A DNA stretch of 64,000 nt from an uncultured Collinsella sp. (GTDB taxonomy: Bacteria; Actinomycetota; Coriobacteriia; Coriobacteriales; Coriobacteriaceae): positions 1,476-65,475 of the forward strand of contig UQZU01000009.1 in assembly GCA_900545665.1 (NCBI GenBank), in the 5' to 3' direction. A program made the translations under genes and the position numbers. The notes below the pieces were generated by a model. It saw nothing but the letters and a program-made list of their open reading frames with translations. It had not been told where the DNA came from and did no database searches. Shown here in pieces: positions 2,311-20,898 of the stretch. Numbering within the stretch: position 1 is the stretch's first letter; every line of letters starts with the position of its first letter.

Positions 2311-2458
2311 CTCGTTTACGGGCAAATTTTCAACGTTTGCGGATTAGCTCTTGAAAATTTGGCGAGTTCATATAGTTCTTGGCAAAGACCTTACGTTTCC
2401 CTTGTAAAAGCTCTAAAGTATCCTCTGCTCGATTCATCAACGCATTGGATGTGATTAC

Positions 2459-2866
2459 GTGCGCAAGGCGCTGGCACAACCTCATACCAAGCAGTTCCTC
2501 AAGTTTGCTGTCGTGGGTCTTATCTCCTTTGGCATCGACTGGGGCATGCTCATTGCGCTCGTCGAGCTGTTCCACCTCGACTTTTTGATGAGCACCACGG
2601 TTTCGTTTATCACGTCCGTCGTGGTCAACTACTGGCTCAGCATGAAGTACGTGTTCGACCACCGCGAAGGCATGAGCCGCAAGCGCGAGTTCACGATCTT
2701 CACCATCCTGTCGGTGATCGGCCTGGGCCTCAACGACCTGTACATGTTTGTGGGCGTCACGTTTTTGAGCATCGGCTACCAGGCCATGAAGGCCATCGCC
2801 ACGTTCCTCGTCACCTGGTACAACTACTTCAGCCGCCGCTTCTTCCTCGAGGGCGCACGGTCGTAG
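2459..2866 (+). CDS. GtrA family membrane protein (tandem paralog)
   Basis: GTG start. Sequence parallels the upstream paralog (FLKFAVVGLISFGIDWG, MKYVFDHREGMSRKREF, WYNYFSRRFFL). Confidence 0.8.
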   Translation: MRKALAQPHTKQFLKFAVVGLISFGIDWGMLIALVELFHLDFLMSTTVSFITSVVVNYWLSMKYVFDHREGMSRKREFTIFTILSVIGLGLNDLYMFVGVTFLSIGYQAMKAIATFLVTWYNYFSRRFFLEGARS

Positions 2867-2892
2867 TCGATTCACTATTTGCTTGAATGTAT

Positions 2893-2964: not shown

Positions 2965-3003
2965 GAAAAACGGGCGGTCCGGATGTTGGTCCGAACCGCC
3001 CGT
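2965..3003 (-). terminator. Intrinsic terminator ending the DUF4430 two-gene unit
   Basis: The minus strand reads ACGGGCGGTTCGGA-ccaaca-TCCGGACCGCCCGT followed by TTTTTC, about 20 nt after the stop at 3026. Confidence 0.75.
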
Positions 3004-3025
3004 CTGGCGCGCTATGTCGAGGCCT

Positions 3026-3937
3026 CTAGCCCGTTACGTAATACCAAACGACGTTGTCACCATTGGAGAGAACGTAGTTACTGCAGGCCGTCATGGGCGT
3101 TGTGCCGTTGACGGAGTACATCCAGCCGCTCGTGCCGCCGTACTGTTTCTCGGCCAAACCACCAATCGCAGAAACATACGTGCCGTACGATGAGCCGTGT
3201 GCGTTGACAGAAAGGCCCAGCGCGCACAGGGCATCGTAAACGGTGGCGCCTTCGTTAAAGGTAAAGGTGCCGCCAGAGGACACGGGATTGCCCACAGCGC
3301 TCGATGTGACCGAAACCGTCACCGTAACGTAGTTGGACTCCTGTGAGCCGCTTTGGCTGCCCGAGGAGGCGTTTCCACCATTAGGGGATGAGGCTCCATC
3401 AGACGACTGGCCACCGCCCGAAGAAGCACCGCCAGACGCATTGGAAGTATCACCGGCTCCCGTATTTTGGGCAGCGGATTTATCGCCAGACCTCTTGCTG
3501 TCCTGGCCATCGGACTTCTTGCTATCCGAGCTTTTGTCCGATTCCTTGTGCGAAGACTCGGAATCATCCTTGGCGTCGTTCGAGCCCTTGGACTCATCTT
3601 TTGCAGCATCCGAAGATTTGGAATCCTTGGAACTGGCCTCGCCCGAAGCGGTAGACGAGCCAGACCCCTTGGTGTCCTTGGCGACGACGCTCTCCCCCGT
3701 CACGGTCTGAACGATCCAGTCAATGGACCAGGCGCCGCTCTCGGAAGGATGGACGAAGCCCAGCGAGACGACGATCAGAATGGTGCACGCGGCAGCAAGA
3801 ACGCCAAGGAGCGCCTTGCGACGAGATGCGGACGCCGCCGAAGCGGCGCCCTGTTGCTTTGCATCGTCGAACTGAATGAACGAGGAATCTGGTTGCTTGG
3901 GGTCAGCGTCCTTGGATTTATTGGACACAACCCTCAC
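3026..3937 (-). CDS. N-terminally membrane-anchored DUF4430 (transcobalamin-like beta domain) protein
   Basis: Signal-anchor helix LLGVLAAACTILIVVSLGFV, a long S/D/K/G-rich low-complexity spacer, and a C-terminal DUF4430-like module (TFTFNEGATVYDAL...GGTSGWMYSVNGT...LSNGDNVVWYYV). The GTG start directly abuts the TAG of the upstream gene. Confidence 0.8.
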   Translation of the reverse strand: MRVVSNKSKDADPKQPDSSFIQFDDAKQQGAASAASASRRKALLGVLAAACTILIVVSLGFVHPSESGAWSIDWIVQTVTGESVVAKDTKGSGSSTASGEASSKDSKSSDAAKDESKGSNDAKDDSESSHKESDKSSDSKKSDGQDSKRSGDKSAAQNTGAGDTSNASGGASSGGGQSSDGASSPNGGNASSGSQSGSQESNYVTVTVSVTSSAVGNPVSSGGTFTFNEGATVYDALCALGLSVNAHGSSYGTYVSAIGGLAEKQYGGTSGWMYSVNGTTPMTACSNYVLSNGDNVVWYYVTG

Positions 3938-6900
3938 CTACCGACGTTTGGTGAACACGAACACGCCGACGATGGCGAGACCGATGACGCCGGCGGCAAC
4001 GCCAACAATGGCGAGCGGGTTGGTGCCAGTCTCCTGCTCGGAAGCACTGGAGGACTTCTTAGCAGTGGTCGTGGAAGCAGCACCCGTATCGGACTTCTTG
4101 TCGGACTTGTTGTCCTTCTTGTCAGACTTCTTCTCATCCTTCTTGTCGGACTTGTTTTCCTTGGTCTCGGCCTTGGTCGACACCGTCGTCTTGGTCGTCG
4201 GCTTATGACCCGGGGCGACAGCGCCGCCCTTCGAGCCGGAGCCGGAACCCGTGCCAGTGCCAGCGCCAGTGCCGGAACCAGTACCGGTACCAGAACCGCC
4301 GCCGCCATTCGAACCTGCGCCGCCATTACCGCCAGGGTTAACGGCATTCTTGGTCCACTTGGCATACAGCGTCAGATCGGCCGTCACCGGCGTGGCGAAG
4401 TCATACGCCCGCGTGCAGGCTTCATCGGTATACCAACCGCCGAAAGTGTAGCCATCGCGCGTCGGATCGGCCGGCTTGACCAGCTTGCCATCGGCCGTGG
4501 CAACAAACTTAGTGTCGCAAGCAGACCCGCCGTTGGAATTAAAGGCAACCGTCCAAGACTCAACGGCCCCAAGCTTGAACAGCGTGCCCGAGTCATTGAT
4601 GTAGTACAGGTTGCCAGATGCATCGGCAATGACCGGAGAGTCACAGTACTGGTAATGGCCAGCCGCATCATAAATCTGCGTCGCCTCTGCATCGCCGAGC
4701 GTATAGCGATACACCCCACCACCAGCAGAGTAGCTGACGTAGTCCTTGCTATCCGCGCTATTAACGGTGAAGTACACATAGGTCTTGCCGCCCTGAACAC
4801 TCACCAGCGGAGTAGCAGCAATACCGTTAAATCCGGCCGGTAGCTCTTTACCGTCAGCAGCGGTGACCATCGTGGTCTTACCAGTCTTCAGATTATAGAG
4901 AACCAGAGCAGATCCAGTAGCCGTCTGCCCACCGACAATCAAGTTGTCGCCAGACATCGCCGGGGCGCTCATGTTGTTCGTAAGACCCAGGTCGACCGTC
5001 TTCTGCTCGCTCAGCACGCCCTTCGCCGAAAGCGAAATCACATGGAGCTTTCCGTCGTGCGTCATCTGATAGAAGGTCGAGCCATTGGACGGATCGGCGA
5101 CGCAGTCAGCGTTCGCAAGGGTGCCGAGCTTCATGGTCGAAACGACATCGCCCGTTGCCTTATCAATGCACTTAAGCGTACCTGCGCTCGTGGGGACGAT
5201 GGCGTACTTATCCGTCAGGGCAGCGCCAGTCCAATAATAGCCCTCAGCTGCGTCGATGTTCTGCCAAGAGACTTCGCCTGTGGTGATCTTGATGCGCGTA
5301 AAGGAACCGTTGACGTATTTCTTCCCATCAGCCGTACCTACATAGACGTACTCGCCGTCCGAAACGACGGTGCAGGAGCTCTGCGTCAAGTCCGTCAAAC
5401 CAGGCGTCAGCCACTTGCAGATCAGCTTGTCTGCAGTAATCGCCTGGACCGCACCGCCGTTGAGCGGAACGATGATAAGGCCGTTGGTATAGATCGGACG
5501 GGAGGTATAGCTCACCTTGGAGGCAAGCGGCGCAGAGGCAACCTTTTTGCCCGTGGACGAATCGATCTTAATGAGCTCGTTCTCGGTCGCGATGTACACA
5601 AAGCCGTTGGCGATGACAGGTTCGCTGCAGTTGGCATACTGCTGACCAGACTCGGCCTTCCAATCGAAGGCCCACTTAAGACCGGAAGCCTGCGCAGGCG
5701 TCTTGGCATCCGTTACGGTCGAACCGTTGCCACTGTTGCCGTAGCCGGCCCACTCGGCATCCCAATCAGGAGTCGTCGCGCTCGGATCCACGACAATCTT
5801 GTCGGGATCGGGCATGGGCGAATTATCGGTGGTATAGGCAAGCGTGACCTTATCGCCGCTCTTGAGCGTAATCTGATTGGCGCAGAGTAAGGAGGGCTCT
5901 CCGTTGATATACAGATGCCAATATTTATTGGTCGCAGCATCCCAACCATACGGCTTGTGATCGAACGGCGAAGTAATGGAATTCAGGAACCAGTACTCAC
6001 CACTCTGGGAGCCGTTGTACGCAACGCCCTTGGCCTTCAGAACTGCCTCAATAAGGTTCTGGGCCGTGGAGCCTTCGGGCAGAGAAACATTGCTTGCCGT
6101 GCCCCAACGCGTATTGTTCCCGTTGACATCGGGACCGATAACATCGGCGGATCCAAGCACCTGACCGGGGAGGACATCGGCGTCAGCACCATACATAAAG
6201 GTGACGGCGTCACCCTCCTGGAGCTTGTAGGCACCGGCGCCAACGTCGGCGAACTTGCCATTTACGTAGAAGCGCCAATAGCTCTTGGTCGCAGCATCCC
6301 AGCCATAGGACTTACCATCAAACGGCGAAGTAATGCCGTTGAGGAACCAGCCCCAAGACGATTCGCCAGCATCGAGAGTAAGGCCGGTCTGCTCAAGGAG
6401 ATCCTTGGCAGTAGAGCCTGCCTTGAGACTCGTCTGGCCCGTCGAAGCCCAAATCTGCTGCTTGCCGTCCTTGTCCTTACCAAGCACCTGAACGGAAGCA
6501 TGAACGGAATCAGAGGGCAGCTGGTCGCCCCAGCCACCGTAGAACCACGTGACGGTATCGCCAACATGGATGGTGACATTGTCCGCCGTATAGTCACTCG
6601 ACTTGCCGTTGATGAACAGCTGCCAATAGGTCGAATAATCTTGGGGCGTACCCAGTTCAACACCGTTGTACTTAAGGCTCAGAATGAAGGAGCCCGCAGC
6701 AACGGCGTCGATGCCATTCGCCTCAAGCGCGACCTTCGTAAGGTCAAGTGCGCTCGAGCCGGACGTCACCACATACTGCGCGTTATCGACCCAGGTCTGA
6801 GTCTTGCCCTGGGCATCGCGACCAATGACGGTCACATTTGCGGCAACCTGGTCCTTAACGACAGGGGACGAGCTACCAGCCGTATAGGCAAACTCAATCT

Positions 6901-7651
6901 TCTGCCCCCGGGTGAGCTTGACGCTGCTCGCGCCAACCGAGGAAGACGCGCCGTCGACGAACAGCTGCCAGTAGGCATAGGTCGTCGGATCGTAGGCAAG
7001 CGTGCGGCCATCGCTCGGGGATGTGATGCTTTCGAGGTAGAAACCGTATGCCGTGTTCGGATCGTACTTCGCCTTGAAGCCCGTCTTCTCCTGCAGCTTA
7101 ATGAAGGCATCCGCAGCCGTCGCGCCCTCGTCGAGCTTGAGCTGCGTAGGTGCCACCCAGGTCTGAGCCCTGCCGTCAGCATCGGTGCCGATAATCGAGA
7201 ACGAGACCTCGACCTGCTTCTTGGCAACATCGCCGGTTTCTGTCGGGTTCTCTGTCTGAACGGCAGCCGCGGCGGCAGATCCCACTTGGCCAGCGGATGC
7301 CGTCGAAGACTGCTCGCTCGTGGCAGGGCTCTCCCCCGTCGCCGAGCCTTCGTCGCCAGTTGCTGCCTCTGTTGTGGCTGCACTAGCTGCAGGCGCGCCC
7401 TCGGAATCCGAAACCTCGGCGCCGCTCTGCTCAGCGGTACCGCCCGCAAGCGCTGCGTCCTCGCCCGGCGTCGCAGTCTGAGCCACAGCCTCGGCAATGC
7501 CCTCGGCGCCCTCGGCCCACAGCTGAGCCGGTGTGGTGCCAAAGGCCATCGCGAAGGCCAGGAATGCCACCAGGCCGCGCTTGGCTACGCCGCGCGCAAT
7601 TGCGCCACGGCGATGCGAGACGCGCTGGCGCTCGTCCTCAAACATATCCAT
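3938..7651 (-). CDS. Giant tail-anchored surface protein: signal peptide, 4x DUF4430 repeats, PQQ/BamB-like beta-propeller, Flg_new (Listeria-Bacteroides) repeat, K/D/S-rich spacer, C-terminal TM
   Basis: Start reassigned to ATG 7651, with AGGAGA 4 nt upstream; the track start at 7795 is a TTG inside the riboswitch leader. N-terminus RGLVAFLAFAMAFGTTPAQLWA is signal-like. Four ~112-aa repeats end YWQLFVDG..KIEFAY, YWQLFING..TVTWFY, YWRFYVNG..AVTFMY and YWHLYING..KVTLAY. Repeated propeller blades include GFVYIATENELIKID and DGEYVYVGTADG. A DGYTFGGWYTDEACT..LTLYAKW repeat follows. C-terminus is IVGVAAGVIGLAIVGVFVFTKRR. Confidence 0.85.
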   Translation of the reverse strand: MDMFEDERQRVSHRRGAIARGVAKRGLVAFLAFAMAFGTTPAQLWAEGAEGIAEAVAQTATPGEDAALAGGTAEQSGAEVSDSEGAPAASAATTEAATGDEGSATGESPATSEQSSTASAGQVGSAAAAAVQTENPTETGDVAKKQVEVSFSIIGTDADGRAQTWVAPTQLKLDEGATAADAFIKLQEKTGFKAKYDPNTAYGFYLESITSPSDGRTLAYDPTTYAYWQLFVDGASSSVGASSVKLTRGQKIEFAYTAGSSSPVVKDQVAANVTVIGRDAQGKTQTWVDNAQYVVTSGSSALDLTKVALEANGIDAVAAGSFILSLKYNGVELGTPQDYSTYWQLFINGKSSDYTADNVTIHVGDTVTWFYGGWGDQLPSDSVHASVQVLGKDKDGKQQIWASTGQTSLKAGSTAKDLLEQTGLTLDAGESSWGWFLNGITSPFDGKSYGWDAATKSYWRFYVNGKFADVGAGAYKLQEGDAVTFMYGADADVLPGQVLGSADVIGPDVNGNNTRWGTASNVSLPEGSTAQNLIEAVLKAKGVAYNGSQSGEYWFLNSITSPFDHKPYGWDAATNKYWHLYINGEPSLLCANQITLKSGDKVTLAYTTDNSPMPDPDKIVVDPSATTPDWDAEWAGYGNSGNGSTVTDAKTPAQASGLKWAFDWKAESGQQYANCSEPVIANGFVYIATENELIKIDSSTGKKVASAPLASKVSYTSRPIYTNGLIIVPLNGGAVQAITADKLICKWLTPGLTDLTQSSCTVVSDGEYVYVGTADGKKYVNGSFTRIKITTGEVSWQNIDAAEGYYWTGAALTDKYAIVPTSAGTLKCIDKATGDVVSTMKLGTLANADCVADPSNGSTFYQMTHDGKLHVISLSAKGVLSEQKTVDLGLTNNMSAPAMSGDNLIVGGQTATGSALVLYNLKTGKTTMVTAADGKELPAGFNGIAATPLVSVQGGKTYVYFTVNSADSKDYVSYSAGGGVYRYTLGDAEATQIYDAAGHYQYCDSPVIADASGNLYYINDSGTLFKLGAVESWTVAFNSNGGSACDTKFVATADGKLVKPADPTRDGYTFGGWYTDEACTRAYDFATPVTADLTLYAKWTKNAVNPGGNGGAGSNGGGGSGTGTGSGTGAGTGTGSGSGSKGGAVAPGHKPTTKTTVSTKAETKENKSDKKDEKKSDKKDNKSDKKSDTGAASTTTAKKSSSASEQETGTNPLAIVGVAAGVIGLAIVGVFVFTKRR

Positions 7652-7794
7652 TTGTCTCCTACTGTCTGCACTTGGAGCGTTGCCTTGAGACTGCCCCACG
7701 TCATCGCGCATGTTGCGCTCGAGTTCCCCCATCGGGGTCCCCCTTCCCTCCAGAGCCCTATGCACACCGGCGGCAAAAGCCGCAGCCGCATGCA

Positions 7795-7968
7795 AGACGG
7801 GAGGCGATCCGACTTAACCTTAACGACTCGGGCACGTCGTCCGATCTGCGACGCGAGCATCCCGAGCCAAGAGGAATTACGGTTACTGGTACAGCTGGGG
7901 ACTTGCACCCCGATTCTCCCAAATGCGCAGGATAACCGCGCATTCGTGCGTCTCCGCACCACCATCTA
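7795..7968 (-). promoter_or_regulatory. Cobalamin (B12) riboswitch-like leader
   Basis: The minus strand reads GGTGGTGCGGAGACGCACG, then hairpin AATGCGC-ggttatcct-GCGCATT, then TGGGAGAATCGGGGTGCAAGTCCCCAGCTGTACCAGTAACCGTAA. This matches the conserved GGGA..GGTGCAAGTCC..GCTGT.CC..AC.GTAA core. It is followed by stem CTCGGG...CCCGAG with a nested CGTCG/CGACG hairpin and a B12-box-like AAGTCGGATCGCCTCCC. A separate terminator (8003-8031) lies upstream. Confidence 0.75.
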
Positions 7969-8002: not shown

Positions 8003-8031
8003 CAAAAGGGCCTCGCACGCAGGCGAAGCCC
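8003..8031 (-). terminator. Intrinsic terminator of the ABC1-kinase operon
   Basis: The minus strand reads GGGCTTCGCCTGCGTGCGAGGCCC followed by TTTTGCG, about 50 nt after the stop at 8083. Confidence 0.7.
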
Positions 8032-19096: not shown

Positions 19097-19122
19097 AGAA
19101 AAGGGCCGGTTGCAGCCGGCCC
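19097..19122 (-). terminator. Probable terminator about 220 nt downstream of the zinc-ribbon gene
   Basis: The minus strand reads GGGCCGG-ctgcaa-CCGGCCC followed by TTTTC. Confidence 0.5.
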
Positions 19123-19342
19123 TAGACGATAATACCTGCGTTGCCCGCGTCTCCGAAGTTTAAGCGCTGAGGAGCGGGTTCCGCGGCACAACCTGATTTT
19201 ACCCAGTGAGGCAGCTCTTTTGCAGCCGCTCCACTGTTTATTTACATCTGGCACCCTCAAACAATCAGACAGCAGCCCGCACTCCTGAGAGCCGCCCCGC
19301 ACCCCCGGCCATCACGTTACGGCAACAACCGGCGCTACTCCC

Positions 19343-20680
19343 CTACTTCCCAAAGATCGCAGCAAACAAGCCCTTGCGTTTGGGCTTTTCCTCTCGGTAA
19401 GAACCCTCGACGGCGGCTGCCACCTGACGCGGCTGCTCGCCGTCTCCACGGCGCACAATCTGATAGAGGAACGGCGATTTAACGTATTTGACCTCGACGG
19501 GCGTGGCGTGCACGGTGCTCTCGCCGGACAGATGCAGGCTCGGGTTGAGCGGCGCCACGATATGCGTCTCGCGCTTGTCGCTAAACACTACCGCTGCCGC
19601 ACGACCCGTCTGGCCGTTCACGGCGATGCGCACCTGCTCGCCATCGCGGCCATCCGTCGCCGGACGGTCGACAAAGTACACCGGCACCATCACCAAACCG
19701 TCCTTGTGTTTGCGAGCCTTGCGCGCCCAGGTGCGGATGCTCTTTTTATTGAGCCCCAGTACAGCCTCGGCGTCGTTGCCCGCAATGTCGAGCGCCAACT
19801 TATCAATGACCACCTGGTCCTTGGTAGACGCATCGACGGAGACGACGCGGAAGTCGCCTTCCTGCATGGCAGGGTCAAACGGCCCAACCTTGGCATAGTC
19901 CCACGGCTCCAAAATGCCCATAAGTCGAACATCCAGATAGTTTGCCCTCGGATACGCCCAGTCGAGCACCTCGTAGTACACCAGGGTTTCCTTGCTCAGG
20001 CCCTTGCCCGGGAAGCTCGCCATCATGCGCAGGTCCGCCAGCGCCATGGGGAAATAGAAGAGCATCATGTCGTTTTGGATCGCATCTTCCACGTCGTGCC
20101 CGGCAAAGGCGTCGGGGTACTGGCGCACCAGCTGCAGTGCGTTGGCACGTGCCTGCTGCGGCGAGATTTCGCAGGGAATGCCCTGCTCCGGCACATACTC
20201 CGCACCCACGCCCATGGTCAGACGCTTGCTGAAGGTACCGGGCTTGAGCAGGTCGGCAATGCCGATCTTGTTGCCGCAGGACGGGCACTCAAACACGCGC
20301 TGCGTTGACTCGCCCTCAAAGGACGCTCCGCAGAAGGGGCAAGGAATGCTCACATGCGTGGCCTCTTGGAACTCTTGCGCCGTGCCGCGATCCTCCCACA
20401 GCAGATGTTCCAGGACCGACTGATTGCGCCAGTGCGAATTGAAGAAATACCAGTCCGGGTCCTCCGGGCGCTCGAGTTGCGACACATGCGTGAGCTTGAG
20501 CAGTCCATCCACCACCGTCAACGGCGTATGGCGAATGCCCAAAGCGCTCTTGGGCTCTCCGGCGTCCGCCTGCCACGGAATGACCGCACCGCAATAGGCG
20601 CACTCAAAGCTGCGCTTAGCCTGGTGCGAGTACATAGGGCCGCCGCAGTTTTGACATTTAATGGCAAACATCTCGTCCAT
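19343..20680 (-). CDS. Uncharacterised double zinc-ribbon protein with MinD-like C-terminal amphipathic tail
   Basis: ATG 20680 has AGGAGG 8 nt upstream. CQNCGG..x..CAYCG and CPFCG..x..CPSCG ribbons are followed by a ~290-aa domain of unknown function. The protein ends KPKRKGLFAAIFGK. Confidence 0.75.
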   Translation of the reverse strand: MDEMFAIKCQNCGGPMYSHQAKRSFECAYCGAVIPWQADAGEPKSALGIRHTPLTVVDGLLKLTHVSQLERPEDPDWYFFNSHWRNQSVLEHLLWEDRGTAQEFQEATHVSIPCPFCGASFEGESTQRVFECPSCGNKIGIADLLKPGTFSKRLTMGVGAEYVPEQGIPCEISPQQARANALQLVRQYPDAFAGHDVEDAIQNDMMLFYFPMALADLRMMASFPGKGLSKETLVYYEVLDWAYPRANYLDVRLMGILEPWDYAKVGPFDPAMQEGDFRVVSVDASTKDQVVIDKLALDIAGNDAEAVLGLNKKSIRTWARKARKHKDGLVMVPVYFVDRPATDGRDGEQVRIAVNGQTGRAAAVVFSDKRETHIVAPLNPSLHLSGESTVHATPVEVKYVKSPFLYQIVRRGDGEQPRQVAAAVEGSYREEKPKRKGLFAAIFGK

Positions 20681-20898
20681 GGAAACGTCCTCCTTTGCAC
20701 AGGGGCTGTCGACATTAAGTATGTCGAGCAAACAGGCACATGCCCATACCCATGTGGCCCAAAATGGACCACCCAGGCAGACGAGAAGGCTCGCTCGTTA
20801 GCACCGGCAGACTATTGCTGCATTTTCTGAGCATCGGTGCACGGCGCCCCCGCGCGAGCTACACTATCCCCTTAAACATGATTGTGAGGACGACCGCT

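What the first reader, a model, noticed from the sequence alone, without database searches (positions are those of the whole stretch)
3026..7968. B12-riboswitch-controlled two-gene surface module built from DUF4430 (transcobalamin-like) domains: candidate uncharacterised Gram-positive corrinoid-capture system
**Seen in sequence:**
- A cobalamin-riboswitch-like leader (7795-7968, minus strand) is bracketed upstream by the terminator of the preceding operon (8003-8031).
- The unit ends at its own terminator (2965-3003), so it comprises exactly two genes.
- Gene 1 (3938-7651) displays four tandem DUF4430-like repeats, a multi-blade PQQ/BamB-like propeller and a Flg_new repeat on a C-terminal tail anchor.
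- Gene 2 (3026-3937) displays one DUF4430 module on an N-terminal anchor behind a long S/D/K spacer.

**Established knowledge:**
- Pfam DUF4430 (PF14478; InterPro name 'Transcobalamin-like, C-terminal') corresponds to the beta domain of the eukaryotic B12 carriers transcobalamin and intrinsic factor.
- Cobalamin riboswitches control B12 uptake and synthesis genes.
- Bacteroides uses a surface beta-propeller lipoprotein (BtuG) to capture B12.

**Inference:**
- This is a surface corrinoid-scavenging device for a monoderm cell.
- It combines five transcobalamin-like modules with a propeller.
- It is uncoupled from any BtuFCD or ECF transporter gene, since none is adjacent in this window.
- I do not recognise this architecture as a characterised system, but I cannot search the literature.
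Basis: partly seen in the sequence, partly recalled or inferred. Interest (0 to 1): 0.85.

Follow-up and report, generated by a model that had tools for sequence, protein, structure and literature searches.

The report
Riboswitch-controlled surface vitamin B12 catchers
A gut Collinsella bacterium keeps two membrane-anchored surface proteins, built from the same fold that human B12 carriers use, under a vitamin-B12-sensing RNA switch; they are strong, still untested candidates for how bacteria without an outer membrane catch B12, and the larger one varies remarkably between strains.

Summary
A two-gene unit lies on the minus strand between two intrinsic terminators in a Collinsella aerofaciens-type genome. 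Gene 1 has four DUF4430 repeats, an eight-bladed BamB/YxaL-like propeller, a Flg_new repeat and a C-terminal membrane anchor. Gene 2 has an N-terminal anchor, an acidic spacer and one DUF4430.

The leader misses Rfam's cut-off (RF01689, 29.0 vs 36.5 bits). However, 21 diverse relatives share a cobalamin-type P2-P6 core with strong covariation, and a model built from them hits once upstream of the big gene in 56 of 85 related loci.

In Adlercreutzia, Paratractidigestivibacter and metagenomic relatives, the same gene pair is followed by an ECF transporter whose S component matches CbrT, the B12 importer in PDB 6FNP. In Eggerthella lenta a threshold-passing AdoCbl riboswitch precedes the operon, and an alpha/alpha-toroid protein takes the big protein's place.

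The modelled repeats match the haptocorrin, transcobalamin and intrinsic factor beta domains. The propeller does not resemble BtuG.

Aravind's group predicted this protein class in 2007, so the idea is not new, but I found no experimental study.

Two new points: gene 1 probably starts at 7732, and the C. aerofaciens complex carries at least five deeply divergent alleles of gene 1 at this one site.

The parts
8008..8031 (-). Intrinsic terminator of the upstream ABC1-kinase gene (8083-9846). It sets the 5' boundary of the unit.
   Evidence: Terminator scan: 9-pair stem with 7 GC pairs, followed by TTTT. RNAfold gives -18.6 kcal/mol.
7767..7965 (-). Cobalamin-type riboswitch aptamer. It comprises a P2 hairpin, P3, P4 (GGGGUGCAAGUCCCC), P5 with an invariant ACCAGUAAC loop, and P6 (CCG/CGG) carrying a roughly 65-nt insertion. 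The B12-box-like AAGUCGGAUCGCCUCCC starts at 7815.
   Evidence: RF01689 scores 29.0 bits, E = 1.3e-4, at 7849-7930, below the GA of 36.5. The RNAalifold core was derived from 21 leaders. Pairing is 93.6% against 78.7% when shuffled, and covariation is 0.422 against 0.160, with 0/500 shuffles as high. Model R1 scores this site at 165.8 bits.
7733..7766 (-). Expression platform: the CUGG box (7753-7750), complementary to the invariant CCAG of loop L5, followed directly by the Shine-Dalgarno-like GGAGGGAAGGGGGA and then ATG 7732.
   Evidence: The same order, CUGG(A) then a purine-rich SD then ATG, is found in all 21 representative leaders. The kissing-loop reading is inference by analogy.
3938..7732 (-). 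The stop codon TAG is at 3940-3938.
   Evidence: ORF listing, translation, and start-codon placement relative to the conserved platform. About 1300 near-identical database proteins were found, all 120 listed carrying the same Pfam set.
7514..7651 (-). Signal peptide region of gene 1: a basic n-region, the hydrophobic LVAFLAFAMAFGTTPAQLWA, and a likely cleavage after LWA.
   Evidence: Read directly from the translation. An equivalent N-terminus ending in ...AAWA or ...LWA is present in all homologues inspected.
5816..7219 (-). Four tandem DUF4430 / transcobalamin-beta-like (SLBB) domains, R1-R4 (aa 145-612).
   Evidence: PF14478 at 153.5 bits in 4 stretches. Repeat alignment. The R3-R4 AF2 model has pLDDT 93.5. 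Best Foldseek PDB matches are haptocorrin 4kki, transcobalamin 5np4/4zrp, intrinsic factor 2pmv/3kq4 and 3u7z.
4565..5758 (-). Eight-bladed PQQ-like beta-propeller of the BamB/YxaL class (aa ~632-1029).
   Evidence: The AF2 model has pLDDT 84.3 and pTM 0.87. Foldseek top matches are Cake10, BamB, YxaL and tetrathionate hydrolase, with E from 1e-15 to 1e-12 and no BtuG in the best 50. PQQ_2 passes its Pfam cut-off in homologues.
4358..4552 (-). Flg_new / InlB B-repeat domain (aa 1034-1098).
   Evidence: PF09479 at 77.5 bits, TIGR02543 at 42.8 bits, and InlB 2y5p at E = 1.9e-4.
3941..4357 (-). G/S/T- and K/D/S-rich stalk, then the C-terminal transmembrane helix PLAIVGVAAGVIGLAIVGVFVF (3953-4018), then the TKRR tail. 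There is no LPXTG motif.
   Evidence: Translation. The same C-terminal layout occurs in all homologues.
3026..3937 (-). Gene 2, the small surface protein (303 aa; start GTG 3937, or GTG 3928 as called in other strains). It has a cytoplasmic tail, a TM helix (3752-3814), a ~140-aa S/D/K/G spacer and one DUF4430 domain (3029-3331).
   Evidence: Translation and PF14478 at 68.3 bits. The C-terminal domain is 47-63% identical to the operon partners in Adlercreutzia, Paratractidigestivibacter and E. lenta. A small DUF4430 gene follows the big gene in nearly all related loci that extend far enough downstream.
2966..3005 (-). Intrinsic terminator of the two-gene unit.
   Evidence: Sequence. RNAfold gives a 16-bp stem at -33.9 kcal/mol followed by UUUUU.

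Best explanation
The unit is a cobalamin-riboswitch-controlled operon for two cell-surface corrinoid-capture proteins of a bacterium without an outer membrane.

**What the sequence and comparisons show**
- The leader folds into a cobalamin-type aptamer.
- Both proteins are exported and held in the cytoplasmic membrane: gene 1 by a C-terminal helix, gene 2 by an N-terminal helix.
- Both sit on long low-complexity stalks that could span the cell wall.
- Between them they display five beta-grasp domains of the kind that forms the B12-binding beta domain of transcobalamin, intrinsic factor and haptocorrin.
- In related Coriobacteriia the same gene pair is co-transcribed with an ECF transporter whose S component is a CbrT homologue.

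**What is inferred**
- When intracellular corrinoid is high, the aptamer binds it. The invariant L5 loop (CCAG) then pairs with the CUGG box next to the Shine-Dalgarno sequence, and translation of gene 1 (and of gene 2, whose start abuts its stop codon) is shut off.
- When corrinoid is scarce, both proteins are made. The DUF4430 domains bind cobamides or cobinamide outside the wall and pass them inward.
- The conserved small protein is the last hand before an ECF-CbrT-type (or other) importer. In Collinsella that importer is encoded elsewhere in the genome.
- The large protein is the variable outer catcher. Its propeller either contributes the second half of a binding site, taking the role that the alpha/alpha-toroid protein plays in the E. 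lenta operon, or docks onto a partner.
For: **Riboswitch**
- The permissive Rfam hit is RF01689 at E = 1.3e-4. The Adlercreutzia orthologue scores 36.1 bits against a GA of 36.5.
- The consensus P2-P6 core has 11 pairs with changes on both sides. No shuffle out of 500 reaches the observed pairing or covariation.
- Model R1 gives 58 hits in 1.22 Mb: the window itself plus 56 of the 85 related loci (one locus carries two). All are upstream of the big gene on its strand, with no stray hits.

**Fold**
- PF14478 passes its cut-off in both proteins.
- The R3-R4 model's best PDB matches are the B12-carrier beta domains, including 5np4 bound to cyanocobalamin.
- A sequence profile of the repeats ranks transcobalamin-1 and transcobalamin-2 first, though weakly at E = 0.07-0.12.

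**Transporter link**
- The pair is followed by a T-like component, a fused AA' ATPase and an S component in about 21 loci, and also in Paratractidigestivibacter.
- The S component hits ECF-CbrT, PDB 6FNP chain A, at E = 1.9e-11.
- ECF-CbrT transports cobalamin and cobinamide, and hemin does not compete (PMC5997447).

**Related operon and physiology**
- The E. lenta operon has RF01482 at 54.5 bits against a GA of 50.
- C. aerofaciens is reported to require B12 for growth (PMC6593275).

**Prior prediction**
- An independent in-silico prediction of B12 scavenging for this protein class was published in 2007 (PMC1796856).
Against: - No binding, expression or genetic data exist for these proteins.
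- The window's leader is below Rfam's curated threshold.
- No transporter was found in the window or in the flanks of 80 Collinsella loci. No Collinsella CbrT homologue was seen among the best 120 hits of a profile search.
- Several related five-gene operons carry no detectable riboswitch.
- In eukaryotic carriers the beta domain binds B12 together with an alpha domain, and this operon has none.
- The SLBB superfamily also includes domains that bind polysaccharide and DNA (PMC1796856).
- A homologous L. sakei system was claimed to import heme (bioRxiv 10.1101/864751).
- The direction of regulation (OFF) is assumed by analogy.
Confidence: 0.68

Rival explanations
1. The proteins are B12-regulated surface proteins whose main job is not uptake. 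They could be adhesins or interaction modules that dock the cell onto host mucus or proteins, onto corrinoid-producing neighbours, or onto host B12 carriers. On this reading the DUF4430 domains act as generic beta-grasp binding modules, and the propeller and InlB-type repeat act as protein-binding modules.
For: - The Flg_new/InlB B-repeat and the BamB/YxaL-like propeller are typical protein-interaction scaffolds.
- The ectodomain falls into at least five deep allele classes within one species complex, as expected for antigens, adhesins or phage receptors.
- Other SLBB domains bind polysaccharide (PMC1796856).
Against: - It does not explain why the pair is so often co-transcribed with a CbrT-type importer.
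- It does not explain why the small DUF4430 protein stays conserved next to that importer even where the big protein is replaced by an alpha/alpha-toroid protein.
Confidence: 0.14
2. The proteins bind corrinoids but serve as an extracellular store or a competitive sink, comparable to the reservoir role proposed for BtuJ in Bacteroides. They would not be an obligatory step of import.
For: - Five binding-type domains per protein pair, plus long stalks, suit bulk capture.
- The Collinsella pair stands apart from any transporter gene.
- Reservoir functions have been proposed for Bacteroides surface binders (bioRxiv 10.1101/2025.07.01.662609 abstract; PMC13616437).
Against: The operon fusion with ECF-CbrT genes in many relatives argues for a direct functional coupling to import.
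Confidence: 0.1
3. The ligand is another tetrapyrrole such as heme, as claimed for the homologous L. sakei lsa1836-1840 ECF-like system with its transcobalamin alpha-like and beta-like proteins.
For: The L. sakei study reports heme-related phenotypes and docking for a system with a DUF4430-type protein.
Against: - A cobalamin-type riboswitch precedes the genes.
- The linked S component is closest to CbrT, whose transport is not competed by hemin.
- The L. sakei evidence for the binding proteins is docking only.
Confidence: 0.05
4. The leader is not a riboswitch, and the DUF4430 content is coincidental to regulation.
For: Rfam's gathering threshold is not reached anywhere in the window.
Against: - The core is conserved from Collinsella to Adlercreutzia and other genera.
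- Compensatory changes occur in P2, P3 and P4.
- Register-shift controls collapse to 38-49% paired.
- The element sits only upstream of these operons.
Confidence: 0.03

Closest known systems
Bacterial 'transcobalamin-like clade' SLBB surface proteins, predicted by Burroughs, Balaji, Iyer and Aravind 2007 (PMC1796856)
   Same: - Secreted or anchored proteins with one or more TC-beta-like beta-grasp domains.
- Fusions to a beta-propeller were noted.
[quoted passage not shown]
- A link to CbiO/CbiQ-like (ECF) genes was noted.
- B12 scavenging was proposed as the function.
   Different: - That work was a prediction from Firmicutes and archaeal examples, without riboswitch analysis.
- It did not cover Coriobacteriia, the 4xSLBB + 8-blade propeller + Flg_new + TM layout, the stand-alone two-gene form, or the allelic diversity.
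- I found no experimental follow-up in the searched literature.
ECF-CbrT vitamin B12 importer (L. delbrueckii, PDB 6FNP) and its operons with split transcobalamin-like proteins (E. lenta locus L168; L. sakei lsa1836-1840)
   Same: - Relatives of the window's gene pair sit directly upstream of T, AA' and CbrT-like S genes.
- The small DUF4430 protein is shared with the E. lenta operon (about 50% identity in the domain), which carries a bona fide AdoCbl riboswitch.
   Different: - The window has no ECF genes.
- The characterised L. delbrueckii ECF-CbrT was shown to work without any extracellular binding protein.
- In E. lenta and L. sakei the partner of the beta-like protein is an alpha/alpha-toroid protein. 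Here it is a multi-DUF4430 propeller protein.
Bacteroides surface cobamide relay: BtuG, BtuH, BtuGH, BtuJ, BtuK (PMC13616437)
   Same: - Riboswitch-controlled, surface-exposed, multi-protein corrinoid capture in a gut bacterium.
- Fusion of a B12-binding domain to a beta-propeller (BtuGH).
- Paralogue and allele diversity.
   Different: - The components are not homologous. BtuG and BtuK are seven-bladed propellers that bind B12 on the propeller face, BtuH has a unique fold, and BtuJ is a jelly roll.
- They are outer-membrane lipoproteins feeding a TonB-dependent BtuB.
- Here the binding candidates are beta-grasp domains, the propeller is BamB/YxaL-like, the anchors are transmembrane helices, and the recipient is a cytoplasmic-membrane ECF importer.
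Eukaryotic B12 carriers: transcobalamin, intrinsic factor, haptocorrin
   Same: The DUF4430 repeats share the beta-domain fold. The best Foldseek matches are 4kki, 5np4, 2pmv and 3kq4, and Pfam PF14478 matches.
   Different: - There is no alpha/alpha-toroid alpha domain.
- Four domains are arranged in tandem.
- Sequence identity is only 14-22%.
- The proteins are membrane-anchored.
Cobalamin riboswitches (Rfam clan CL00101: RF00174, RF01482, RF01689)
   Same: - A P3-P6 four-way junction.
- The GGGAA-type junction, a P4 loop GUG.AA.U, the L5 loop, the CCGUAA / AAGUCGG P6, and a B12-box-like 3' strand.
- Placement in front of B12-acquisition genes.
   Different: - The score is below every curated gathering threshold in the window.
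- The core resembles the short class II model but carries a variable 40-70-nt insertion inside P6.
- An invariant ACCAGUAAC loop is paired with a CUGG box beside the SD.

Membership tests
Pfam PF14478 DUF4430 (transcobalamin-like SLBB beta-grasp) | Profile HMM score above the curated cut-off (23.8 bits) | tested here: met
   Gene 1 scores 153.5 bits in four stretches, and gene 2 scores 68.3 bits.
Pfam PF14478 DUF4430 (transcobalamin-like SLBB beta-grasp) | Beta-grasp fold superposable on the beta domain of transcobalamin, intrinsic factor or haptocorrin | tested here: met
   The R3-R4 model has pLDDT 93.5. Foldseek gives 4kki at E = 1.3e-5, 5np4 with TMt 0.63, 5no0 with TMt 0.67, and 3u7z with TMt 0.72.
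Pfam PF14478 DUF4430 (transcobalamin-like SLBB beta-grasp) | Binding of a corrinoid | not testable with these tools
   This needs purified domains and spectroscopy or ITC. No residue-level comparison of the B12 contacts was made.
Cobalamin riboswitch (Rfam clan CL00101) | Covariance-model score at or above a family's gathering score | tested here: not met
   - The window has no hit at the gathering threshold. Its best hit is RF01689 at 29.0 bits against 36.5.
- The Adlercreutzia orthologue scores 36.1 bits.
- The related E. lenta operon does pass, with RF01482 at 54.5 bits against 50.
Cobalamin riboswitch (Rfam clan CL00101) | Conserved P3-P6 junction core with B12 box, supported by covariation | tested here: met
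   RNAalifold recovers P2-P6. Pairing is 93.6%, covariation is 0.422 against 0.160 when shuffled (0/500 shuffles as high), and slid controls are at most 0.095.
Cobalamin riboswitch (Rfam clan CL00101) | Located in the 5' leader of B12 transport or metabolism genes | tested here: met
   All 58 R1 hits lie upstream of the big gene on its strand. A CbrT-type ECF transporter sits in the same operon in many of these loci.
Cobalamin riboswitch (Rfam clan CL00101) | Ligand-dependent structural switch and gene control | not testable with these tools
   This needs in-line probing and reporter assays with AdoCbl, MeCbl and HyCbl.
BtuG-type B12-binding propeller | Seven-bladed propeller structurally related to BtuG (e.g. 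PDB 8BMZ) | tested here: not met
   The best 50 Foldseek PDB matches are BamB, YxaL, tetrathionate hydrolase, Cake10 and a PQQ dehydrogenase, and none is BtuG. The model has about 32 strands, consistent with eight blades.
ECF-CbrT B12 transport system | CbrT-like S component and ECF module encoded with the binding proteins | tested here: not met
   - tblastn with the Adlercreutzia T and S components finds nothing in the window.
- The feature is met in relatives: L082, L085, L104, L166 and others, with 6FNP at E = 1.9e-11.
Sortase-anchored (LPXTG) Gram-positive surface proteins | LPXTG/LAXTG motif before the C-terminal hydrophobic helix and basic tail | tested here: not met
   The helix and KRR tail are present, but the preceding sequence is ...SEQETGTNP. 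No LPXTG motif occurs in any of the 16 homologues inspected.
PQQ-like / BamB-like beta-propeller (PF13360, PF13570) | Profile match above cut-off, or fold match | tested here: met
   The window protein is below the cut-off for PF13570 (32.4 bits against 133). PQQ_2 passes in homologues (47.5 and 35.9 bits against 27.6). The fold match to BamB and YxaL has E of about 1e-14.
Flg_new / Listeria-Bacteroides repeat (PF09479) | Profile score above cut-off (27 bits) | tested here: met
   77.5 bits at residues 1034-1098.

The most novel reading that the evidence does not exclude
Coriobacteriia may run a Gram-positive counterpart of the Bacteroides extracellular cobamide relay. An outer, highly polymorphic catcher (multi-SLBB plus propeller) would hand corrinoids to a conserved membrane-proximal SLBB protein, and from there to ECF-CbrT. 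The deep allele classes kept at one chromosomal site in the C. aerofaciens complex would encode different cobamide specificities, or the ability to strip B12 from host carriers or from neighbouring cells. On this reading strain-level competition for B12 is written into this one locus.
Probability: 0.25. Interest if true: 0.85.

Novelty: new variant of a known kind. Interest (0 to 1): 0.62.

Why it matters
**An open question**
- How bacteria without an outer membrane catch vitamin B12 outside the cell is unresolved.
- A September 2026 review calls Gram-positive surface cobamide binders 'entirely uncharacterized' (PMC13616437).
- A 2019 survey calls B12 transporter identification in many gut genomes 'an open problem' (PMC6593275).

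**What this locus offers**
- It gives concrete, abundant and cultivable test cases: Collinsella aerofaciens, Adlercreutzia and Eggerthella lenta.
- Three independent lines of genomic evidence point to B12: the riboswitch, the carrier fold and the CbrT linkage.
- It defines a riboswitch variant that current Rfam thresholds miss, so B12 regulons in Coriobacteriia are probably under-annotated.
- It exposes a strongly polymorphic surface protein in one of the most prevalent human gut Actinobacteria. This bears on strain competition and possibly on host or phage recognition.

Tried and rejected
- **Rfam gathering scan** of the window and of 11 related loci: no cobalamin hit. I therefore built my own model instead of relying on Rfam.
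- **First homology search and the genome-contig scan**: these returned only orthologues at 93% identity or more, because of Collinsella microdiversity. They were useless for covariation. Distant relatives came from the 50%-clustered library and the metagenome scan.
- **Paralogues in the window**: I suspected P0273 and P0362 were paralogues located elsewhere in the window. The large ORFs at 30-44 kb are housekeeping genes instead (SNF2 helicase, DnaE, AddAB-type nucleases). P0273 and P0362 turned out to be alleles at the same site.
- **BtuH as the DUF4430 homologue**: rejected. The BtuH paper and the review describe a unique fold and make no link to transcobalamin.
- **BtuG-like propeller**: not supported.
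- **Direct phmmer of both proteins against PDB**: only the InlB repeat was found. A repeat profile gave weak transcobalamin hits.
- **Search for a Collinsella CbrT homologue**: inconclusive. The abundant 229-aa group proved to be Paratractidigestivibacter.
- **BLASTP of gene 2 against the E. lenta small protein**: this failed because of low-complexity composition. A domain-only alignment showed 50% identity.
- **The 181-aa minus-strand ORF at 2330-2875**: rejected as a gene in favour of the plus-strand GtrA paralogue.
- **A sigma-70-type promoter upstream of the leader**: the consensus scan found none. TTGACG-16-TAGATG at 7990-7963 is only a visual candidate.

Full report
**Organism and boundaries**

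The window carries the Collinsella-1 RNA. Its gene 1 is 94-100% identical to genes in 80 Collinsella genomes, including C. aerofaciens DSM 13712.

On the minus strand the layout runs as follows:
- The ABC1-kinase gene (8083-9846) ends in a terminator at 8031-8008.
- A leader of about 270 nt follows.
- Then come two abutting ORFs: the stop codon of the first at 3940-3938 is followed directly by the start of the second (3938-7651/7732 and 3026-3937).
- A 16-bp terminator with a U-run closes the unit at about 3005-2966.

Downstream lie two convergent GtrA paralogues and a fructose-bisphosphatase gene on the plus strand.

**Proteins**

Gene 1 scores for DUF4430 (153.5 bits in four stretches) and Flg_new (77.5 bits). 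It scores only weakly for a PQQ-type propeller.

From the sequence, gene 1 has these parts in order:
- a signal peptide (...AQLWA|EG);
- an A/T/E-rich linker;
- four ~115-aa repeats;
- a propeller;
- an InlB-type B repeat;
- a long G/S/T and K/D/S stalk;
- a C-terminal transmembrane helix with a KRR tail and no LPXTG motif.

Gene 2 has a short cytoplasmic tail, one transmembrane helix, a ~140-aa S/D/K/G spacer and one DUF4430 domain (68.3 bits).

Two AlphaFold models were confident:
- The propeller model has pLDDT 84.3 and pTM 0.87. Its best PDB neighbours are the eight-bladed BamB, YxaL and tetrathionate hydrolase, and no BtuG is among the best 50.
- The R3-R4 tandem model has pLDDT 93.5. Its best neighbours are haptocorrin, transcobalamin (including the isolated beta domain bound to cyanocobalamin), intrinsic factor and the R. 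gnavus DUF4430 protein 3U7Z.

The 'transcobalamin-like' label is therefore confirmed by both sequence family and fold. The BtuG parallel is not.

**The leader**

Rfam's gathering thresholds give no cobalamin hit in the window. A permissive scan gives RF01689 (AdoCbl-II) at 29.0 bits against a GA of 36.5, with E = 1.3e-4.

Within Collinsella the leader is 91-100% identical, which is too similar to test for structure. I therefore collected distant relatives of the protein in four steps:
- the 50%-clustered library;
- a profile search;
- contig look-ups;
- a metagenome scan.

The results on these relatives were:
- The Adlercreutzia orthologue's leader scores 36.1 bits for RF01689.
- nhmmer found the element upstream of the big gene in 57 places outside the close Collinsella set.
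- An alignment of 21 leaders below 93% identity gave an RNAalifold consensus with a P2 hairpin, P3, P4, P5 and P6. This is the four-way-junction core of cobalamin riboswitches, and the 3' strands of P6 and P3 lie in a B12-box-like AAGUCGGA..CCUC.
- The ~40-70-nt variable insertion inside P6 explains the poor fit to the short RF01689 model.
- Counting pairs on the alignment gives 93.6% paired cells against 78.7% in shuffles (0/500 as high), and a covariation score of 0.422 against 0.160 (0/500). Pairing falls to 38-49% when the 3' partners are slid by 1-3 columns. Eleven pairs carry double changes, in P2, P3 and P4.
- A covariance model built from the alignment found 58 hits in 1.22 Mb: the window itself plus 56 of the 85 related loci, one of which carries two. 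Every hit was on the gene's strand, upstream of the big gene, and there were no others.

I regard the riboswitch as established, as far as computation can establish it.

**Expression platform and start codon**

In all 21 lineages the aptamer is followed by a CUGG(A) box, a purine-rich Shine-Dalgarno sequence and an ATG 5-9 nt later. In the window these are CUGG at 7753-7750, GGAGGGAAGGGGGA, and ATG 7732.

CUGG is complementary to the invariant CCAG of loop L5. By analogy with the L5-L13 kissing loop of cobalamin riboswitches (my own knowledge of the Batey and Serganov structures), ligand binding would occlude the ribosome-binding site. This step is inferred, and so is the OFF direction.

**Genomic context elsewhere**

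A small DUF4430 gene follows the big gene in nearly every locus that extends far enough.

In about 21 loci the pair is followed by three more genes: a ~290-aa membrane protein in the position of the ECF T component (no Pfam match on record), a fused double ABC ATPase, and an ECF S component. These loci include Adlercreutzia sp. ZJ138, metagenomic loci and Paratractidigestivibacter.

The S component matches chain A of PDB 6FNP at E = 1.9e-11 over its whole length. 6FNP is ECF-CbrT, a dedicated cobalamin and cobinamide importer that hemin does not inhibit (PMC5997447).

In Eggerthella lenta the same small protein (50% identical in the domain) and the same ECF genes follow two features:
- an AdoCbl riboswitch that passes Rfam's threshold (RF01482, 54.5 bits against 50);
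- a 764-aa protein with a weak alpha/alpha-toroid match, a fold that may correspond to the alpha domain of transcobalamin.

So the big DUF4430-propeller protein occupies the slot that a possibly transcobalamin-alpha-like protein holds in E. lenta, while the small anchored beta-like protein is the constant partner.

The window itself has no ECF T or S gene. Its only ABC system, 52 kb away, is of the NMT1 type. I could not find the Collinsella importer.

C. aerofaciens is listed among strains that need B12 for growth despite having synthesis genes (PMC6593275).

**Mechanism proposed**

*Shown:*
- a cobalamin-type aptamer in the leader;
- export and anchoring signals on both proteins;
- five carrier-type beta-grasp domains;
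- linkage to a CbrT-type importer in relatives.

*Inferred:*
- corrinoid-dependent translational shut-off;
- corrinoid binding by the DUF4430 domains;
- capture beyond the wall by the long-stalked large protein;
- hand-over to the small protein, and then to an importer.

The unit of two DUF4430 domains plus the propeller is collinear at 33-51% identity across many families. It carries invariant aromatic motifs (GYYWAG, TYVYFT.N, NDSG.LF). This suggests that the propeller works together with the neighbouring domains rather than acting as a mere spacer.

**What is known already**

Burroughs, Balaji, Iyer and Aravind (2007) defined the SLBB superfamily. They predicted that bacterial transcobalamin-like members are surface proteins and noted the following (PMC1796856):
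- fusions to a beta-propeller;
- a second paralogue in the operon;
- linkage to CbiO/CbiQ-like genes;
- absence of B12 synthesis in the host genomes.

They proposed B12 scavenging as the function. The central idea is therefore 19 years old.

I found no experimental work on these proteins:
- Only eight papers mention DUF4430, none of them functional studies.
- The L. sakei study argues for heme on the basis of docking.
- The 2026 Bacteroides review states that Gram-positive surface cobamide binders are uncharacterised.

**Unexpected finding**

In other genomes of the C. aerofaciens complex the flanking genes are 95-100% identical in protein sequence. The leader is about 95% identical and the small gene 68-93%. 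The big gene at the same site, however, is only 34-48% identical to the window's allele.

Nucleotide homology stops near 7460, after the signal peptide. It resumes near 4453, before the stalk and anchor.

At least five allele classes occupy the site. They range from 1024 to 3327 aa and carry one to four DUF4430 domains, one or two propellers and extra aBig_2 regions. These classes are as far apart from each other as Collinsella is from Adlercreutzia.

**Verdict**

The finding is a new variant of a kind that was predicted but never tested: a stand-alone gene pair, a sub-threshold riboswitch variant, and a hypervariable catcher protein.

Noticed in passing
window 4453-7460 (-); compare L081, L083, L096, L151, L124, L135: The ectodomain-coding core of gene 1 is replaced by alleles only 34-48% identical in other genomes of the C. 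aerofaciens complex. The flanking genes there are 95-100% identical. At least five allele classes of 1024-3327 aa share the leader, signal peptide and anchor.
   Followed up: partly
window 7730-7732 (-): ATG 7732 lies directly behind the conserved CUGG box and SD. It is a better-supported start for gene 1 than ATG 7651 and adds 27 residues. In many lineages the start codon sits in a small palindrome (CCGAUG..AUCGG; in the window, CCCCGAUGGGGG).
   Followed up: partly
L168 3061-9708 (Eggerthella lenta): A threshold-passing AdoCbl riboswitch (RF01482, 54.5 bits) precedes an operon of a 764-aa protein with a weak alpha/alpha-toroid match, a DUF4430 protein, a T-like component, an AA' ATPase and a CbrT-like S component. 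This may amount to a transcobalamin split into two proteins placed in front of an ECF importer.
   Followed up: partly
L105, L106, L112, L120, L122, L132, L133, L140: Five-gene operons (big, small, ECF T, AA', S) with 8 kb of upstream DNA show no hit to the R1 riboswitch model. The five of them that were scanned (L105, L112, L120, L122, L132) also have no Rfam family at the gathering score. How they are regulated is unknown.
   Followed up: no
L084 10001-13828 and 15811-22864: One contig carries two riboswitch-led copies of the system. One is a stand-alone pair. The other is joined to ECF genes, and its big gene is split into a DUF4430 part and a propeller part, either by a frameshift or as a genuine split.
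   Followed up: no
window 19103-19296 (-) and 19343-20731 (-): The Collinsella-1 RNA (RF01700, 198.7 bits), whose function is unknown, lies 47 nt downstream of a 462-aa zinc-ribbon-rich ORF. That ORF has a marginal Cas12f1-like TNB match (27.6 bits).
   Followed up: no
window 2330-2875 (-) versus 2459-2866 (+): The 181-aa minus-strand ORF has no family match. The overlapping plus-strand ORF is a GtrA paralogue (75.9 bits), as annotated in other strains. Gene 2's downstream neighbour is therefore convergent.
   Followed up: yes
window 4565-5758 (-), propeller: Motifs that are invariant across 28 homologues sharing only about 36% identity (GYYWAG, TYVYFT.N, LYY.NDSG.LF) hint at a conserved functional surface on the propeller.
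   Followed up: no
L082 2978-3175 (-): An FMN riboswitch (95.1 bits) precedes a separate ECF S component and ECF module 7 kb from the Adlercreutzia B12-type operon. That genome therefore keeps distinct, riboswitch-specific ECF sets.
   Followed up: no
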